DNA of 37,177 nucleotides from a virus (taxonomy: Duplodnaviria > Caudoviricetes). Below, in pieces: positions 21,716-31,177 of this stretch. Position 1 is the first letter of the stretch. Each line of letters opens with the position of its first letter. The stretch spans positions 1-37,177 of the IMG/VR virus record IMGVR_UViG_3300043423_000010; one strand, 5' to 3'. Made by a program: the position numbers and the translations under genes. A model generated the notes under the pieces. The model was not told the DNA's origin and did no database searches. It saw only the letters and a program-made list of their open reading frames with translations.

Positions 21716-23772
21716 CATTTGAATGGAATAACCTTCCGATCGAACTCACCAGAGCCGTCATGGTCATCAAACATCGCCCAACACCAATCACCATGAACAG
21801 CAACTTTTTCTGCATTTTGGAGTTGAGTCTTAACGCGCCACCATAACTTCCTGAAATCTTCAGCCTCCATATCGCTGCCGCAAGACGCTTTGAACTCATC
21901 GCGCCACTGGTCAACCTTGATTGCTTTGTTTCTCATTCCGTTGATGTTCTCCATCATTCCGAACTTTTTGATGGCTGCATGGAGCGATCTCAGCGCGTTG
22001 GAGTTGTTAGTTCCAAGCCCTGATCTTGTTGGTGGTGGAACAGCATCCTTCCTGCTTCGGTTTACATCCATCTCGTTGTCCACTTCCACGGCTAACGAGC
22101 TTACTGAATCGAACCCCAAAAGTGTTGTGGATAACTCCACCGTAATCATCTGGAAACCGTACCTTTGACCATCCTCACCGTCCTTCTGTTTGGATATGTG
22201 CAGGATGCCTTTGGGTGCGTCCTCAATACGGATGATCTCCAGCTCGGTGTCAACTGCACCTAATAGGCTGCTGTGACCACGCAATCCTTTGGTGGCATCC
22301 TTACCAGCGTGATGGACTACCAGCAATGCACAGTTGTACCGTCCTTGGATTGCGCCAGCCGCTGTGATGAAGGCTCCCATGTCTTCTGACGCGTTCTCAT
22401 TGCCACCACCGAAGGCTCTGGCTAGCGTGTCAATGACTACGAGTTCAAACTGGATGTCGTGCGTTGCTTGGATGTCATCCACGGCTTGAATCAGGTCTTG
22501 GATGTCGGTTGCGCTGCTTCGTAGGTTGATCTGTTTGCGTAAGAAGAACACTGGCGCACCCGCTGGTGTGTTGTGATGCTTCTTCATGGCCTTGATACGC
22601 GCACCGATACCACCGTGACCCTCACCAGCAATGTAAAGCACTGCACCTTGATGCTTGACTTCTTTAGTCAAGAATTCCCTGCCAGTTGCAATGCACTCAG
22701 CAATATCCAAAGCCACGAATGACTTGAATGATGCTGGTGGCGCGTACAGCGCGACAAACGCCTTCTTTGGAATCACGCCTTCGATGAGCCATTCCACAGG
22801 CTCGTCATCAATGTCGTCCAACTGCTCAATCTTGAAGGGTTGACGTTGATTCAGTTGAACTGACAAGGAATCCTTGACAGTTACCGAGGAATCCTCGGTA
22901 ACTGTTGCTTTTTCCTCTGCCTCGCTGAACCGTTCAGGTATCGTTACGTCATCCTCTGATGTGATCTTGTCAGTGTTCTTTGTCAGCGCCGCCAAGTCCT
23001 GCTTGTCATAGCCGTACCTGTTCACGTACTCGTACGCATCTTCCTTGATGTCATCCAATGGCAAGTCCACGACTCGGATGGAGTTGGTGACGTTCTTGAG
23101 TGCTTTGACCGCCTTCTTCGCGTACTCCCAACCAACCTTGTCGTTGTCTGGCAGGATGACCACGTTCAGGCCAGCGAAATACTGAATTGCATCCTCTGGG
23201 AAGCTGCTTGCGCCTTGGTGCGTACACGTTGCCACCACACCGATTGTCTTCAGAGCATCCGCGGCTTTCTCGCCTTCCGTCAGGAATACCGTTCGGTTGT
23301 TTTGTCTGGCTGCTTCGACTTCAGGTAAGTTGTACGGAACGATCTTTGCGCCAGTGATTGACATATGGCGCTTGCCATGTTCGTCCACCCTAATTTGCTT
23401 GTACGTCTTGCCCTTAGAGTCGTTGGTTTTGTAACGCTGCTTGATGAACAGCGTCACACCGTCCTCGTCCGTGTAGTGCCATTCATGCTCAAGAGTTGGT
23501 GCTTCAAACGGTTTGATGGATGCCAAGAGTTCAGCGCGTGGCTCCAAGTCTGGCAAGAGTCCATAGTCCTTGACAGCATTGAACACGTCATGCTGCTCAC
23601 ATCCACCGTGGCACTTGAACAGCGGCTTACCGTCAGCACCGTCAGTGATTGAAAGGCTTGGATTCCTGTCACCGTTTCCTTGCCCATGAGTTGGCAATGG
23701 GCAACTCGCCAGCCAACTGCCGTTGACCTTCTTCGCGTTGCCTAGCGCCTTTGCTATTTGTTCGGCTTGCAT
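21715..23772 (-). CDS. Primase-helicase (Zn-binding + TOPRIM + RepA/AAA_25 helicase)
   Basis: CPLPTH..CHGGC, TEGEKAAD, PDND, Walker A APPASFKS, VVIDT and VHHAGKD..GLRGHSSL. Confidence 0.92.
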   Translation of the reverse strand: MQAEQIAKALGNAKKVNGSWLASCPLPTHGQGNGDRNPSLSITDGADGKPLFKCHGGCEQHDVFNAVKDYGLLPDLEPRAELLASIKPFEAPTLEHEWHYTDEDGVTLFIKQRYKTNDSKGKTYKQIRVDEHGKRHMSITGAKIVPYNLPEVEAARQNNRTVFLTEGEKAADALKTIGVVATCTHQGASSFPEDAIQYFAGLNVVILPDNDKVGWEYAKKAVKALKNVTNSIRVVDLPLDDIKEDAYEYVNRYGYDKQDLAALTKNTDKITSEDDVTIPERFSEAEEKATVTEDSSVTVKDSLSVQLNQRQPFKIEQLDDIDDEPVEWLIEGVIPKKAFVALYAPPASFKSFVALDIAECIATGREFLTKEVKHQGAVLYIAGEGHGGIGARIKAMKKHHNTPAGAPVFFLRKQINLRSSATDIQDLIQAVDDIQATHDIQFELVVIDTLARAFGGGNENASEDMGAFITAAGAIQGRYNCALLVVHHAGKDATKGLRGHSSLLGAVDTELEIIRIEDAPKGILHISKQKDGEDGQRYGFQMITVELSTTLLGFDSVSSLAVEVDNEMDVNRSRKDAVPPPTRSGLGTNNSNALRSLHAAIKKFGMMENINGMRNKAIKVDQWRDEFKASCGSDMEAEDFRKLWWRVKTQLQNAEKVAVHGDWCWAMFDDHDGSGEFDRKVIPFK

Positions 23773-25037: not shown

Positions 25038-25086
25038 TTGCTTTTTGCCTTTCAGAGTTATGAGTCAAACGACTCGGGGGTTTGGA

Positions 25087-26897: not shown

Positions 26898-27361
26898 AAC
26901 TTACTCCCGTAATAAGCCATCATGGTTGCATCTGCTCTTCCAGAGTCTTTGACGCGAGCAAAGAAGTTTTGATCTTCTGGATGCAACTCCATGCAGCGAT
27001 GACGGATTGCGTCCTTGCCTTTGCCGCATTGCGTTGCCTTCATCCATGCTTGTGGCGTGACGAATGTGATTGGTACGCCATGTGCAGCTAATGCGCCTTC
27101 AATCAATCCAGCAGCACGACCAAACGCGAACATAGATGTCACGCCTTGGTTTGGCATTGCGCCGACCTTCTCAACGATTGCGTGAGTTGGATTCAATTCC
27201 TTGATGGCAGCAGCCACGCCTTGCGCAGAGATGTGGTTCTTCTTCTTGCCACCGCGAATAACCTCAACGCAAGGCATATCAATTACGCGCTCAAACTTGC
27301 CGTCAACGTACAGCGAGAACGCGCCTTGAGCGCCAATGTCAACACCCATGACGCGAATCAT
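26894..27361 (-). CDS. RuvC-like Holliday junction resolvase
   Basis: GVDIG, IVEKV, QGVTSMFAFG, VTPQAW and DSGRADA. Confidence 0.85.
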   Translation of the reverse strand: MIRVMGVDIGAQGAFSLYVDGKFERVIDMPCVEVIRGGKKKNHISAQGVAAAIKELNPTHAIVEKVGAMPNQGVTSMFAFGRAAGLIEGALAAHGVPITFVTPQAWMKATQCGKGKDAIRHRCMELHPEDQNFFARVKDSGRADATMMAYYGSKL

Positions 27362-27579
27362 TGTGGTTCTTTCGTCAGTTCGCTGATGCGAGTTGCAATA
27401 AGGCGATCAAGCGCAGCTTTGAGCTTGTCCACGGATGACACCAGTGGAACTGTCTTGCCTGAAATCCAGCGAGAGACTTGGGCTTGGTCTAAGCCAGCCT
27501 CACGGCTGACCTCTGCCATGTTGAAGCCAGCAGCCGCAGCTCGTTGCTTGATGTCTGTGATGTATGTAGATGTGTTCAT
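27358..27579 (-). CDS. Cro/XRE-family helix-turn-helix regulator
   Basis: MAEVSREAGLDQAQVSRWISGKTVP; first gene of the leftward arm. Confidence 0.85.
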   Translation of the reverse strand: MNTSTYITDIKQRAAAAGFNMAEVSREAGLDQAQVSRWISGKTVPLVSSVDKLKAALDRLIATRISELTKEPQ

Positions 27580-27620
27580 GTGCAGTATGTTAACATGAAC
27601 TTGACTATGTAATCACATAG
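27580..27620 (-). promoter_or_regulatory. Leftward promoter with operator-like palindromes
   Basis: TG-T-TAACAT ends 7 nt before the ATG; palindromes ATGTTAACAT (27587-27596) and CTATGT-AATC-ACATAG (27605-27620). Confidence 0.5.
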
Positions 27621-27622
27621 GC

Positions 27623-27714
27623 AAAAAGATGGGTGACAGCGAACCGCCACCCATTGAAAGGCAACTGCGCAGAGGAGAACCACGCAGCCAAGGCTGGAGA
27701 AACCGACCAGCCGA
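27623..27714 (-). ncRNA. Putative three-hairpin anti-Shine-Dalgarno small RNA
   Basis: TAAAAT -10 at 27725-27720; hairpins GGCUGG/CCAGCC and GCUGCG/CGCAGU (loop UUCUCCU); UUCG-capped terminator followed by U5. Confidence 0.7.
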
Positions 27715-27776
27715 CTATGATTTTAGGGATTTGTTGTTGAGATGTAACACTTTTACAAATAGTTTGAAGAAAGTGC

Positions 27777-27818
27777 TTGATGACTACCAAATCAAGTGTG
27801 ATATGATTCAGTCATCAA
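27777..27818 (+). promoter_or_regulatory. Rightward early promoter bracketed by an inverted repeat
   Basis: TG-A-TATGAT (27799-27807); TTGATGACT (27777-27785) and AGTCATCAA (27810-27818). Confidence 0.55.
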
Positions 27819-27843: not shown

Positions 27844-28047
27844 ATGCGAGTAACCCATCTAAACAAAAGCGGCAGCGGCTTTACATCAAAGACAGCTTGC
27901 GGTCGCAACATTTTGCGCACACCTTTCTCAACTGATTGGGCAACATTCAAACAAGAGCCAGCTCAATACCGTTGCATCAAATGTGCAACAAGCAAACAGT
28001 TTGAAGTCAACACACGCAGTGACGCTAAGAATCAAATCAGCAACTAA
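27844..28047 (+). CDS. Early hypothetical protein (H..C..CxxC, possible Zn binding)
   Basis: AAGGAG RBS; TACG and CIKC motifs. Confidence 0.7.
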   Translation: MRVTHLNKSGSGFTSKTACGRNILRTPFSTDWATFKQEPAQYRCIKCATSKQFEVNTRSDAKNQISN

Positions 28048-28057
28048 GGAGAACCAC

Positions 28058-28258
28058 ATGAAACTCAACGACACAACCCGCTGCTTTCCACACACGATGG
28101 AAGAAGCCTTTGGCACAAACCATTACGACTTAGAACGCCGCCAGCGTTGGGAATGGATGGAAGGCCATCAGTCTGATGCTTCCGCTCAAGCAGAGTTCTG
28201 GGTCTACATTGCCTGTGCCTTTGCTGCTGGTTTCTTGGTTTCACATCTTTGGGGTTAA
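28058..28258 (+). CDS. Early hypothetical protein with C-terminal TM
   Basis: AAGGAGAACCAC-ATG; MKLNDTTRCFPHTMEEAFG. Confidence 0.7.
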   Translation: MKLNDTTRCFPHTMEEAFGTNHYDLERRQRWEWMEGHQSDASAQAEFWVYIACAFAAGFLVSHLWG

Positions 28259-28443: not shown

Positions 28444-28676
28444 TGCTTTTTGAGGAAGAACAATTTATGTCCGAGCAACTACAAAACGATATTGACGACA
28501 TCGTGACCGACTTCATTCGCCGCTCTGGTGGCAAGGTTGGAATGATTCGTCCTGATGAATTAGCCACCATGATTCGTGAAGCAGCCAGCCGTGGCGCAAT
28601 GGCTGGATGGCTTGGTGGTGTGAAGCAGGAGCGTGAACACTCACGGGCCACCAAGAACAAGGAGCAGAAGCTGTGA
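28443..28676 (+). CDS. Hypothetical protein
   Basis: Packed ORF; alternative start MSEQ behind GAGGA. Confidence 0.6.
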   Translation: MLFEEEQFMSEQLQNDIDDIVTDFIRRSGGKVGMIRPDELATMIREAASRGAMAGWLGGVKQEREHSRATKNKEQKL

Positions 28677-30283: not shown

Positions 30284-31177
30284 ATGAGTAAAGAAGCAAT
30301 GAAGCTGGCGCTTGAGGCGTTAAACAATGCAACAAGCTATGGTTCACTTACTGGGGCGGATTGGGTATTTAAACAAGTAGACGAAGCCATCAAAGCCCTA
30401 GAAGAAGCACTAGCCAAGCAAGAGCAGGGTGAGCTTGTGGCGATGGCGCAGGTTTACCGCTGCAAGATCAAATCACGCAAGAAAATCGACCGAGAAATTC
30501 CACGCGAAAAACAAGGCTGGTGGGCTGACATATCGGCTGGACAATTGATTCGTTTGCGAGAAGCAACGCAAGCTGACGTTGACCGTTGCACATTAAACGG
30601 TGCGCATAGCAAAGACCCCGCAGACTATATGTGCGAGACACACACCAACGGGTCTCTGGTGTCTAAGGTTGCGCTTGAATACATGAACCCAGAGCAGAAT
30701 GTATTTGCATCCACCACACCGCAACCAAAGCAAGAGCAGGGTGAGCCTGTGGCGGTAATGGAACTTCATAAAAGTGGATGGGATTTGGTTGAAGACATTG
30801 ATACAGACTGGCTTGAGACATTGCCGTTTGGAACCAAGCTCTACACCAGACCACAACCAAAGCAAGAGCAGCGCAGCGTTAGAGCGATAGCAGACAGCGA
30901 GCAACTGGGTGAGCCTGTGGCGTATATGTACCCAGATGATTTGGAACGTATGCAGACCAGTGAATCTTTTTGCACTGTTTTTTCTGTAAAAGTTGGAAGT
31001 CCAGATAAAGGCTTATCAACGGTTGAACTTTACACCACACCACAACAACGCACATGGGTTGGGCTGACGGAGGAGGAACTGCGTCAAATTTGGTATGACG
31101 ATGCGCCCGTTGAAGGTGGCACGTATGTTGACAAACTACGCCAAGTTGAAGCCAAACTCAAGGAGAAGAACACATGA
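30284..31177 (+). CDS. Modular accessory protein (repeated QEQGEPVA...TTPQ cassettes)
   Basis: Three internal repeat-bounded segments plus a terminal WVGLT...VEAKLKEKNT module. Confidence 0.75.
   Translation: MSKEAMKLALEALNNATSYGSLTGADWVFKQVDEAIKALEEALAKQEQGELVAMAQVYRCKIKSRKKIDREIPREKQGWWADISAGQLIRLREATQADVDRCTLNGAHSKDPADYMCETHTNGSLVSKVALEYMNPEQNVFASTTPQPKQEQGEPVAVMELHKSGWDLVEDIDTDWLETLPFGTKLYTRPQPKQEQRSVRAIADSEQLGEPVAYMYPDDLERMQTSESFCTVFSVKVGSPDKGLSTVELYTTPQQRTWVGLTEEELRQIWYDDAPVEGGTYVDKLRQVEAKLKEKNT

What the first reader, a model, noticed from the sequence alone, without database searches (positions are those of the whole stretch)
27623..27725. Candidate RNA repressor: a three-hairpin sRNA complementary to the RBS of phage genes on both arms
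Seen: on the minus strand, TAAAAT (27725-27720) precedes GGCUGG-UCGGUUUCU-CCAGCC, then GCUGCGUGG-UUCUCCU-CUGCGCAGU, a linker UGCCUUUC, and AUGGGUGGCGG-UUCG-CUGUCACCCAU-CUUUUU. The G-U pairs, UUCG loop and U-tract fix the strand. Hairpin 2 (GUGGUUCUCCU, 27683-27673) is an 11/11 complement of AGGAGAACCAC directly before the ATG at 28058 (28047-28057). The linker (UUGCCUUUCA, 27664-27655) is a 10/10 complement of UGAAAGGCAA, the RBS of the SSB-like gene (25054-25045). The loop UUCUCCU also matches the AGGAGAA RBS of genes at 31174, 32812, 33143, 33277 and 24439. Known precedent: anti-SD hairpin sRNAs (cuckoo/alpha-r14 RNAs, betaproteobacterial toxic sRNAs) and P1 C4 / P4 CI antisense immunity RNAs. 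Inference: the RNA sits where a CI repressor would be, no CI was found, and it may act as a multi-target trans repressor of early and replication genes, or of host mRNAs. Short matches can arise by chance; the argument is that both best matches fall exactly on RBSs.
Basis: partly seen in the sequence, partly recalled or inferred. Interest (0 to 1): 0.85.

Follow-up and report, generated by a model that had tools for sequence, protein, structure and literature searches.

The report
Phage RNA copies host sRNA seed
A small RNA gene conserved across many freshwater phages carries the same 9-11-letter recognition sequence as an apparently undescribed small RNA of their likely bacterial hosts, and it is predicted to block production of two host histone-like DNA-binding proteins, which would be a new way for a phage to loosen the host's grip on DNA.

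Summary
The RNA is real: 90 nt, minus strand, 27712-27623, with its own -10 box and terminator, conserved with compensatory changes in six phage clades (124 loci). The 11/11 match to gene 28058 occurs in 1 of 34 orthologue loci, the 10/10 SSB match in 5 of 79, and cognate RNAs match their own start regions no better than shuffles. A repressor also exists: a leaderless HTH gene with operator-like palindromes. Hairpin 1 and the anti-SD loops are dispensable; the invariant part is GCRGUUGCC(A/U)U before the terminator. The same 11-mer, GCAGUUGCCAU, is the invariant loop of a single-copy, Rfam-less bacterial sRNA-like gene before lepA (97 of 201 genomes of one Burkholderiales family). It is complementary to the fixed start ATGGCAACTGC of that family's histone-H1-like and SWIB-domain genes (182 of 201 genomes); these rank 1 and 2 of 1317 predicted targets of the host RNA. 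Best reading (about 0.55): a phage sRNA that mimics a host sRNA seed and represses host nucleoid proteins. The host, expression and repression are all unproven.

The parts
27623..27712 (-). Predicted small RNA, about 90 nt, from the first G of hairpin 1 to the U-tract
   Evidence: Fold z = -4.2; homologues lie 5-7 nt below a -10 hexamer in 56 of the 57 loci examined; covariation
27720..27748 (-). sRNA promoter: -10 TAAAAT (27725-27720), weak -35 GTTACA (27748-27743)
   Evidence: TANAAT invariant in the 57-sequence alignment
27692..27712 (-). Hairpin 1, a 5' stem; loop GUUUC in clades A-C, other loops in D, absent in clades E and F
27664..27688 (-). Hairpin 2; loop UUCUCCU (27679-27673, anti-GGAGA). 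UCUCC is in 117 of 124 loci and absent in clade F and further variants
27658..27668 (-). Invariant seed GCAGUUGCCUU (base of the hairpin-2 3' arm plus linker); shares its first 9 nt with the host RNA loop GCAGUUGCCAU; complement of (AU)GGCAACUGC
   Evidence: CRGUUGCC in 123 of 124 and GCRGUUGCC in 117 of 124 loci (extraction was seed-guided); the 3' stem strand stays fixed while the 5' strand varies by G-U; host RNA
27623..27654 (-). Intrinsic terminator: 11-bp stem, UUCG loop, U-tract
   Evidence: 7 of 11 pairs with changes on both sides
27587..27592 (-). -10 box (TAACAT) of a separate, likely leaderless promoter for the HTH gene
   Evidence: Hexamer exactly 7 nt before the ATG in 124 of 124 loci
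27358..27579 (-). 73-aa XRE/Cro-type HTH protein, the likely repressor
   Evidence: PF01381 E = 9e-7; PHROG transcriptional repressor families
27602..27615 (.). Operator-like palindrome TGAC-N6-ATCA at the HTH promoter
   Evidence: 44 of 124 loci at this place
27781..27817 (.). Two operator-like palindromes (27781-27794, 27804-27817) over the rightward promoter (27780-27807, +)
   Evidence: 111 of 124 loci
28047..28057 (+).
25045..25054 (-).
23735..23742 (-). Primase-helicase codons 11-13 (GGC AAC GC), a synonymously fixed partial complement of the seed; possible phage-side target
   Evidence: GGC 49 of 51 and AAC 51 of 51 distinct 5' ends; highest of the Gly columns tested

Best explanation
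This is a conserved phage small-RNA gene with its own promoter and terminator whose invariant seed matches that of a bacterial sRNA-like gene, and it likely acts in trans by pairing over the start codon of two host mRNAs, those of the histone-H1-like protein and the SWIB-domain protein, which would lower these nucleoid proteins early in infection. Shown: structure, conservation, shared seed, complementarity to a fixed 11-nt start in the host family. Inferred: the host belongs to that family (probably Comamonadaceae, by recall), the RNA is made early from a sigma-70-type promoter, the U-tract recruits Hfq, the unpaired UUGCC acts as a toehold that displaces the bottom of hairpin 2, translation is blocked, and less histone-like protein frees phage DNA for transcription and replication. 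The CU-rich loops are likely accessory: they match the AGGAGA and AGGAAA ribosome-binding sites of the same two host genes, and of many other genes.
For: (1) Only the seed is invariant. Hairpin 1 is lost in clades E and F and the UCUCC loop is replaced in F and other variants. The seed's stem strand is fixed while its partner varies. (2) No phage start region carries a conserved complement. (3) The complement reads in frame as ATG GCA ACY GC: the variable position is the third base of Thr and conservation ends before the third base of Ala; 30 of 124 phage loci carry the exact host 11-mer. (4) A single-copy unit TANAAT..CCAAC..GCAGUUGCCAU..GUUGG plus terminator lies between degP/mucD and lepA in 97 of 201 genomes of the family of G001, reversed-pattern control 0; it folds at z = -4.7. 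(5) 182 of 201 genomes of that family have genes starting ATGGCAACTGC-N-AARAAR, mostly two each. In the genus of G001, 102 of 109 MATAKK starts are exactly this 11-mer. In an order-wide sample it is 8 of 8 in the three genomes with the host RNA and 9 of 36 in the rest (not phylogenetically independent). The genes are NF038053 histone H1-like (95.7 bits, cut-off 80) and SWIB PF02201. (6) For the host RNA these two genes rank 1 and 2 of 1317 start regions by two methods. For phage RNAs of six clades combined they rank 10 and 13 by mean rank, 6 and 7 by worst rank. (7) A random phage 9-mer falls in a host promoter-plus-terminator unit 0.7% of the time, an 11-mer 0.05% (1.2 of 2.6 Mb). (8) The same two-hairpin RNA sits in a different phage group without the HTH gene (L814, L834, L868). 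(9) Precedents: IhtA occludes the AUG of histone-like hctA with about 7 nt (PMC4355289, abstract); prophage HnrS represses hha (PMC13502914, abstract).
Against: The host is not identified: no close prophage in 401 Burkholderiales genomes and no spacer-like or homologous match in 401 genomes of the family. The family was reached by chance through one named record. In five of six clades, the window's included, the seed has U where the host RNA has A, so there is a U-U mismatch in the AUG. The seed is half buried: opening costs 6-10 kcal/mol in phage RNAs against 5.3 in the host RNA. The window's own RNA ranks the two genes only 41 and 131 of 1317 by cofolding and 108 and 341 by the accessibility-window method. 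The two genes were picked by seed complementarity, so their phage-RNA ranks are partly circular. Gene starts in G667 are my own calls on 1.2 Mb. There is no expression evidence for either RNA. Two of 80 clade D-F loci have degenerate seeds (L478, L479). The host unit could be a lepA leader rather than an sRNA. That these host proteins restrain phage DNA is untested.
Confidence: 0.55

Rival explanations
1. The RNA regulates the phage's own replication genes: the seed pairs with primase codons 11-13 and, in clades A-C, with the AAGGC(AA) of the SSB RBS, tuning replication timing.
For: Primase GGC AAC is fixed at synonymous sites (49 and 51 of 51), the best-kept of the Gly columns tested. In the window the duplex is -15.4 kcal/mol, rank 5 of 949 windows. 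AAGGC is in the SSB RBS of all 44 A-C loci, where the linker is GCCUU, and in none of 14 D loci, where it is GCCAU. This could explain the U in place of A.
Against: The site needs a bulged A, ranks 15-137 in the five other RNAs tested, lies at +31 to +38, and primase codons 1-6 are also synonymously fixed. E and F keep GCCUU while 16 of 21 of their SSB sites lack AAGGC. Other-clade RNAs bind SSB starts as well or better than cognate ones.
Confidence: 0.15
2. One reading: an RNA stand-in for CI that represses early genes on both arms through anti-SD loops.
For: Both best matches in this genome fall on RBSs. GGAGA is in 6 of 20 early and 2 of 26 late RBSs. GAAACC versus GAAACT in start regions follows loop 1 in clades A and C.
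Against: Matches are not conserved (1 of 34, 5 of 79); no cognate enrichment; clade B breaks the loop-1 pattern; loops and hairpin 1 are dispensable; an HTH repressor with operators is present; no integrase among the 48 ORFs scanned.
Confidence: 0.08
3. A broad anti-Shine-Dalgarno RNA like the betaproteobacterial toxic sRNAs that dampens many host mRNAs, with cold-shock genes (ATGGCAACTGG) among the seed targets.
For: The clade-C loop carries UGUCUCC, the 5' seed of RF02278, and clade A resembles its CUCUCCUCC loop. 128 of 151 Burkholderiales genomes have MATG-x-VKW cold-shock starts, most beginning ATGGCAAC. Clade-F seeds (CCAGUUGCC) fit them better.
Against: No RF02278 match in the phage. 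The loops vary or vanish while the seed does not. The Thr codon of cold-shock genes varies freely, unlike the MATAKK starts.
Confidence: 0.1
4. The shared 11-mer is a protein-binding or processing motif; the phage RNA is a decoy that titrates a partner of the host RNA, or Hfq, rather than pairing with mRNA.
For: The seed is partly paired in the phage RNA. VpdS competes with host sRNAs for Hfq (PMC12197685, part 1 read).
Against: The motif sits in a loop in the host RNA but in a stem-linker junction in the phage, and two distinct host gene families hold its exact complement at their starts.
Confidence: 0.07
5. A cis element only: a terminator or insulator that shields the HTH promoter, with no trans function.
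For: It always lies just upstream of a leftward gene on the same strand.
Against: It has its own -10 box, the downstream gene has a separate promoter, and a single-stranded seed is invariant while stems co-vary.
Confidence: 0.05

Closest known systems
IhtA sRNA of Chlamydia (represses histone-H1-like hctA; PMC4355289, abstract and outline seen)
   Same: A short seed covers the AUG and first codons of a histone-like gene; three stem-loops of which one segment does the work.
   Different: IhtA is a chromosomal developmental regulator with its seed in loop 1. Here the RNA is phage-encoded, unrelated in sequence, and the seed is a stem-base/linker junction. Repression is only predicted.
HnrS, prophage sRNA of EHEC (represses hha; PMC13502914, abstract and outline seen)
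   Same: Short phage-borne sRNA that blocks translation of a host nucleoid-associated protein.
   Different: HnrS pairs at the hha RBS in lysogens and is tested. This RNA is in apparently integrase-less freshwater phages, its predicted targets are H1-like and SWIB genes, and it shares its seed with a host RNA.
PreS (lambda) and VpdS (VP882) (as described in review PMC12197685, part 1 of 6 read)
   Same: Phage-encoded trans-acting sRNAs that act on host mRNAs to favour phage replication.
   Different: Neither is described there as sharing a seed with a host sRNA; PreS acts on dnaN, VpdS works partly by Hfq competition.
Betaproteobacterial toxic / double-hairpin sRNAs, RF02278 (PMC5688073, passages seen)
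   Same: 60-90 nt, hairpin plus terminator, CU-rich anti-SD segments; the clade-C loop holds the RF02278 seed UGUCUCC.
   Different: No covariance-model match; the invariant element here is GCRGUUGCC, absent from the RF02278 consensus.
Viral microRNA orthologues such as KSHV miR-K12-11, which shares the miR-155 seed (recalled, no call)
   Same: A virus RNA that reuses a host regulatory RNA's seed in a different scaffold.
   Different: Eukaryotic RISC pathway; here a bacterial base-pairing sRNA.

Membership tests
RF02278 betaproteobacterial toxic sRNA | Covariance-model score at or above the gathering cut-off (50 bits) | tested here: not met
   No match in the phage genome at E <= 1 while a true member scored 58.7 in G001; no Rfam hit
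RF02278 betaproteobacterial toxic sRNA | CU-rich unpaired segments complementary to ribosome-binding sites | tested here: met
   UCUCC in 117 of 124 loci; absent in clade F
RF02278 betaproteobacterial toxic sRNA | Growth inhibition on over-expression | not testable with these tools
   Needs expression in cells
P1 C4 / P4 CI antisense immunity RNAs (features recalled) | Conserved complementary target in the phage's own early operon | tested here: not met
P1 C4 / P4 CI antisense immunity RNAs (features recalled) | Match to the Rfam C4-type models | tested here: not met
P1 C4 / P4 CI antisense immunity RNAs (features recalled) | Temperate element that maintains lysogeny and immunity | tested here: inconclusive
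   No integrase among 48 ORFs scanned; no close prophage in 401 genomes; lifestyle unknown
Cuckoo / alpha-r14 sRNAs (features recalled) | Repeated hairpins each with a CCUCCUCCC loop | tested here: not met
   Loops are GUUUC and UCUCC, variable or absent; no Rfam hit
Phage-encoded trans-acting base-pairing sRNAs (HnrS, PreS, VpdS kind) | Own promoter and intrinsic terminator, intergenic | tested here: met
   Sequence level only:
Phage-encoded trans-acting base-pairing sRNAs (HnrS, PreS, VpdS kind) | Conserved seed with a conserved complementary target | tested here: met
   the target lies in a bacterial family not proven to be the host
Phage-encoded trans-acting base-pairing sRNAs (HnrS, PreS, VpdS kind) | Discrete transcript detected | tested here: inconclusive
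   Only assembled contigs were available; they cannot show ends, strand or level
Phage-encoded trans-acting base-pairing sRNAs (HnrS, PreS, VpdS kind) | Hfq binding and target regulation in vivo | not testable with these tools
   Needs RIL-seq or reporters
IhtA-like repressors of histone-like genes (works-like claim) | Seed pairs across the AUG of a histone-H1-like mRNA | tested here: inconclusive
   Predicted: 9 bp (window) to 11 bp (clade D, host RNA) at +1 to +11; not shown experimentally; U-U mismatch in five clades

The most novel reading that the evidence does not exclude
Bacterial seed mimicry: abundant freshwater phages of at least two groups have evolved or captured an sRNA that reproduces the seed of an undescribed, family-wide host sRNA and so take over a host circuit that sets the level of histone-H1-like and SWIB nucleoid proteins. 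This would be the phage counterpart of viral microRNA orthologues and would reveal both a new host chromatin regulator and a role for these proteins in restraining phages.
Probability: 0.45. Interest if true: 0.9.

Novelty: new variant of a known kind. Interest (0 to 1): 0.76.

Why it matters
Neither RNA matches Rfam. If the model holds, it gives three things. First, a phage sRNA that works by copying a host sRNA seed; I found no such case in searches or in the parts of review PMC12197685 I read. Second, a new conserved sRNA of a large Burkholderiales family with two sharply predicted targets. Third, a direct handle on what histone-H1-like and SWIB proteins do in these bacteria, and whether they silence or condense incoming phage DNA. 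The seed also predicts the host family of an uncultured phage group. All of it is testable with reporters and compensatory mutations.

Tried and rejected
Rfam: nothing at gathering level in the window, only chance hits at the locus and at the host RNA. BLASTN of the locus against annotated phages: chance only. R2 over 151 Burkholderiales genomes found only terminator look-alikes; it missed the host RNA because the scaffolds differ. The host-type scaffold was not found in viral contigs (0), so there is no sign of direct capture. Of 120 viral seed-plus-terminator loci, 101 had the HTH downstream, 8 were cut short and 11 were other; 3 of those 11 look like true members and 8 could be chance 11-mers before terminators. 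Six distant RuvC loci and MW202879.1 had no match to the RNA models. Expression: the two RNA-seq runs and two doubtful ones laid were contigs only, hold relatives at a small share and cover both arms alike, so they say nothing. Host search: capsid protein in 401 genomes (4 distant hits); 20 kb of DNA in 401 genomes (9 hits; two 27-nt hits were a palindrome inside a bacterial gene, not spacers); cluster look-up gave no organism names; plasmid SWIB genes of Comamonas and Variovorax lack the N-terminal tail and did not name the family. Pair counts used structure strings that I had put out of register and are void; (host terminator) shows 99% pairing but no double changes. The first chance control missed its own positive and was redone. 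Fremin et al. 2023 (PMC10690425; abstract and outline seen) list 10,006 viral candidate RNAs; the seed was not found in the 3 of 6 supplementary files that could be searched, and the alignment files could not be read, so this RNA may be among their candidates. Earlier findings of this scan: nothing returned.

Full report
Context. The window is a complete 37,177-bp phage genome with direct terminal repeats. PHROGs gives terminase, portal, capsid, endolysin, primase-helicase, exonuclease, a RuvC-like resolvase and a small HTH repressor, and no integrase among the 48 ORFs scanned. The nearest annotated capsid is from an uncultured spring phage (67%), then Sinorhizobium phiM5 and LUZ24-like phages. 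The RNA lies in the 265-bp gap between the leftward arm (HTH, RuvC, exonuclease, SSB-like, primase) and the rightward arm of small early genes.

Observation. The fold has z = -4.2; a -10 box and a terminator are found; Rfam has no match.

Conservation. All 22 contigs found with the HTH protein carry the RNA. A model built on them hit 25 of 34 RuvC loci; 3 lacked upstream DNA and 6 were distant resolvases. A second model hit 78 of 80 loci found with distant HTH proteins; the 2 misses are at contig ends. This gives six clades. A, B, C and D have three hairpins; E and F have only one hairpin plus terminator, about 60 nt. Stems co-vary. In 124 de-duplicated loci, CRGUUGCC is in 123, GCRGUUGCC in 117, GCC(A/U)U in 123 and UCUCC in 117. 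These counts are seed-guided: 6 of 80 D-F loci were dropped (4 contig ends, 2 degenerate seeds), 8 of 69 A-C loci were dropped for too few genes, and part of clade C was found by a pattern that includes the seed. Further variants replace UCUCC with other loops. Three contigs of a different phage group hold the same two-hairpin RNA between divergent arms, before an unrelated gene and a terminase. At the base of hairpin 2 the 3' strand is fixed while its partner alternates between Watson-Crick and G-U pairs, so that strand has a constraint beyond the stem.

The 28058 orthologue has an 11-nt complement in 1 of 34 loci. The SSB start has a 10-nt complement in 5 of 79, and AAGGC is missing in all of D and F and most of E. 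Over 61 loci, cognate RNAs match their own start regions about as often as shuffled or foreign-clade RNAs, and accessibility-aware energies show no consistent cognate advantage. The HTH gene has its own -10 box 7 nt before the ATG in 124 of 124 loci, and TGAY-N6-RTCA palindromes cover the rightward promoter in 111 of 124 and the HTH promoter in 44 of 124. A leaderless repressor mRNA with operators is the lambda cI arrangement (established knowledge), so nothing is missing that the RNA must replace. One phage-side site survives: primase codons 11-12 are synonymously fixed as GGC AAC. I keep it as the main rival.

The seed points to the host. The complement of the invariant block reads ATG GCA ACY GC in clade D and AAG GCA ACY GC elsewhere. 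In five Burkholderiales genomes, ATGGCAACTG started a cold-shock gene and a SWIB-domain gene with a lysine-alanine tail. In the genus of G001 (G001 is the genome of a record titled Burkholderiales bacterium), 57 of 61 genomes have MATAKK genes and 102 of 109 such starts are exactly ATGGCAACTGC. They are two families, the histone-H1-like protein NF038053 and the SWIB protein, with ribosome-binding sites of the AGGAGA/AGGAGU and AGGAAA types. Family-wide, 182 of 201 genomes have this start. Order-wide only 17 of 44 MATAKK starts do.

A host RNA with the same seed. In 1.2 Mb of genome G667 a single unit stood out: TACAAT, then CCAAC..GCAGUUGCCAU..GUUGG, then a terminator (z = -4.7). It lies between degP/mucD and lepA, occurs once in 97 of 201 family genomes with 0 in the reversed control, has the 11-mer invariant in its loop in 18 of 18 aligned copies and has no Rfam match. 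In the order-wide sample the canonical form was seen in three genomes only (G001, G059, G110), all also in the family sample. Its two best predicted targets among 1317 start regions are the two MATAKK genes, by two methods (-12.6 and -11.9 against -8.7 next; -19.2 and -16.0, the second tied with rank 3). The chance that an arbitrary phage 9-mer or 11-mer falls in such a unit is 0.7% or 0.05% for this half genome. The scaffolds differ and the host form is absent from viral contigs, so convergence on the same target is as likely as capture.

How well the phage RNA fits. Cofolding places it on +3 to +11 of both host mRNAs by opening the bottom of hairpin 2. The ranks are moderate: 41 and 131 of 1317 for the window, 6-24 for the C, D, E and F RNAs tested in that call, and 10 and 13 when one RNA per clade is combined. 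Opening the seed costs 6-10 kcal/mol, and five clades have a U-U mismatch at the AUG. One degenerate phage seed (L478) would pair, with one bulge, with the synonymous start ATG GCC ACC GC seen in other Burkholderiales; this is a single, untested case.

Mechanism. Shown: gene anatomy, conservation, shared seed, fixed complementary starts. Inferred: early transcription, Hfq help, toehold pairing, blocked initiation, lower H1-like and SWIB protein, freer phage DNA. The host family name Comamonadaceae is my recall from gene order and genome sizes; no call names it, and no call ties this phage to it.

Comparison and novelty. It works like IhtA (PMC4355289, abstract and outline) and HnrS (PMC13502914, abstract and outline), and is of the same general kind as PreS and VpdS (PMC12197685, part 1 of 6 and a term search). 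It is not a member of RF02278 (PMC5688073, passages), C4/CI or cuckoo RNAs. Ten literature searches (listings only unless named above) showed neither RNA nor a phage sRNA that shares a host sRNA seed; the library lacks most subscription papers, and the Fremin 2023 alignment files could not be read.

Verdict. Interest 0.76.

Noticed in passing
L747:19701-19777 (G667 C1, about 379700-379780); L651, L759-L788: Undescribed single-copy sRNA-like gene (about 65 nt) between degP/mucD and lepA in 97 of 201 genomes of one Burkholderiales family; its predicted top targets are the histone-H1-like and SWIB genes. A finding in its own right.
   Followed up: partly
window 27358-27817: Leaderless HTH repressor gene and TGAY-N6-RTCA operator-like palindromes at both divergent promoters, in a phage with no integrase found; lifestyle open.
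   Followed up: partly
window 22875-22907: Long palindrome inside the primase-helicase gene; 27 nt are identical to a palindrome in a gene of two bacterial genomes (L632, L633). Possibly a replication origin, or coincidence.
   Followed up: partly
window 23735-23772 (-): The primase 5' end is synonymously fixed at codons 1-6 (including the rare ATA) and 11-12, and often lacks a Shine-Dalgarno; translational coupling or an RNA site.
   Followed up: partly
window 28467-28676 (+): A 69-90-aa early gene without Pfam or PHROG hit is present in 120 ORF calls across all six clades, the only core gene of the otherwise mosaic early arm near the promoter.
   Followed up: no
L814, L834, L868: A second phage group carries the same two-hairpin RNA between divergent arms without the HTH gene.
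   Followed up: partly
L815, L836, L870, L878, L886: Unrelated phage contigs have the seed 11-mer shortly after a stop codon and directly before a terminator; could be 3'-UTR-derived RNAs or chance.
   Followed up: no
L480-L489, hairpin 1: In one clade-D subgroup hairpin 1 holds GGGCAAC (a GCAA tetraloop) that can alternatively pair with the RNA's own seed, a possible self-sequestering switch.
   Followed up: no
upstream of the RNA's -10 box in clades C-F (e.g. L209, L461, L499): A motif GTC(GGG/AAC)TATT 8-10 nt before the -10 hexamer replaces a canonical -35; possibly an activator site.
   Followed up: no
window 35015 (-), 1260 (-), 21554 (-): Two virion-region genes have ATGGCAAC at their start and one starts GTGGCAAC, a partial complement of the seed; the host RNA could also act on phage mRNAs.
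   Followed up: no
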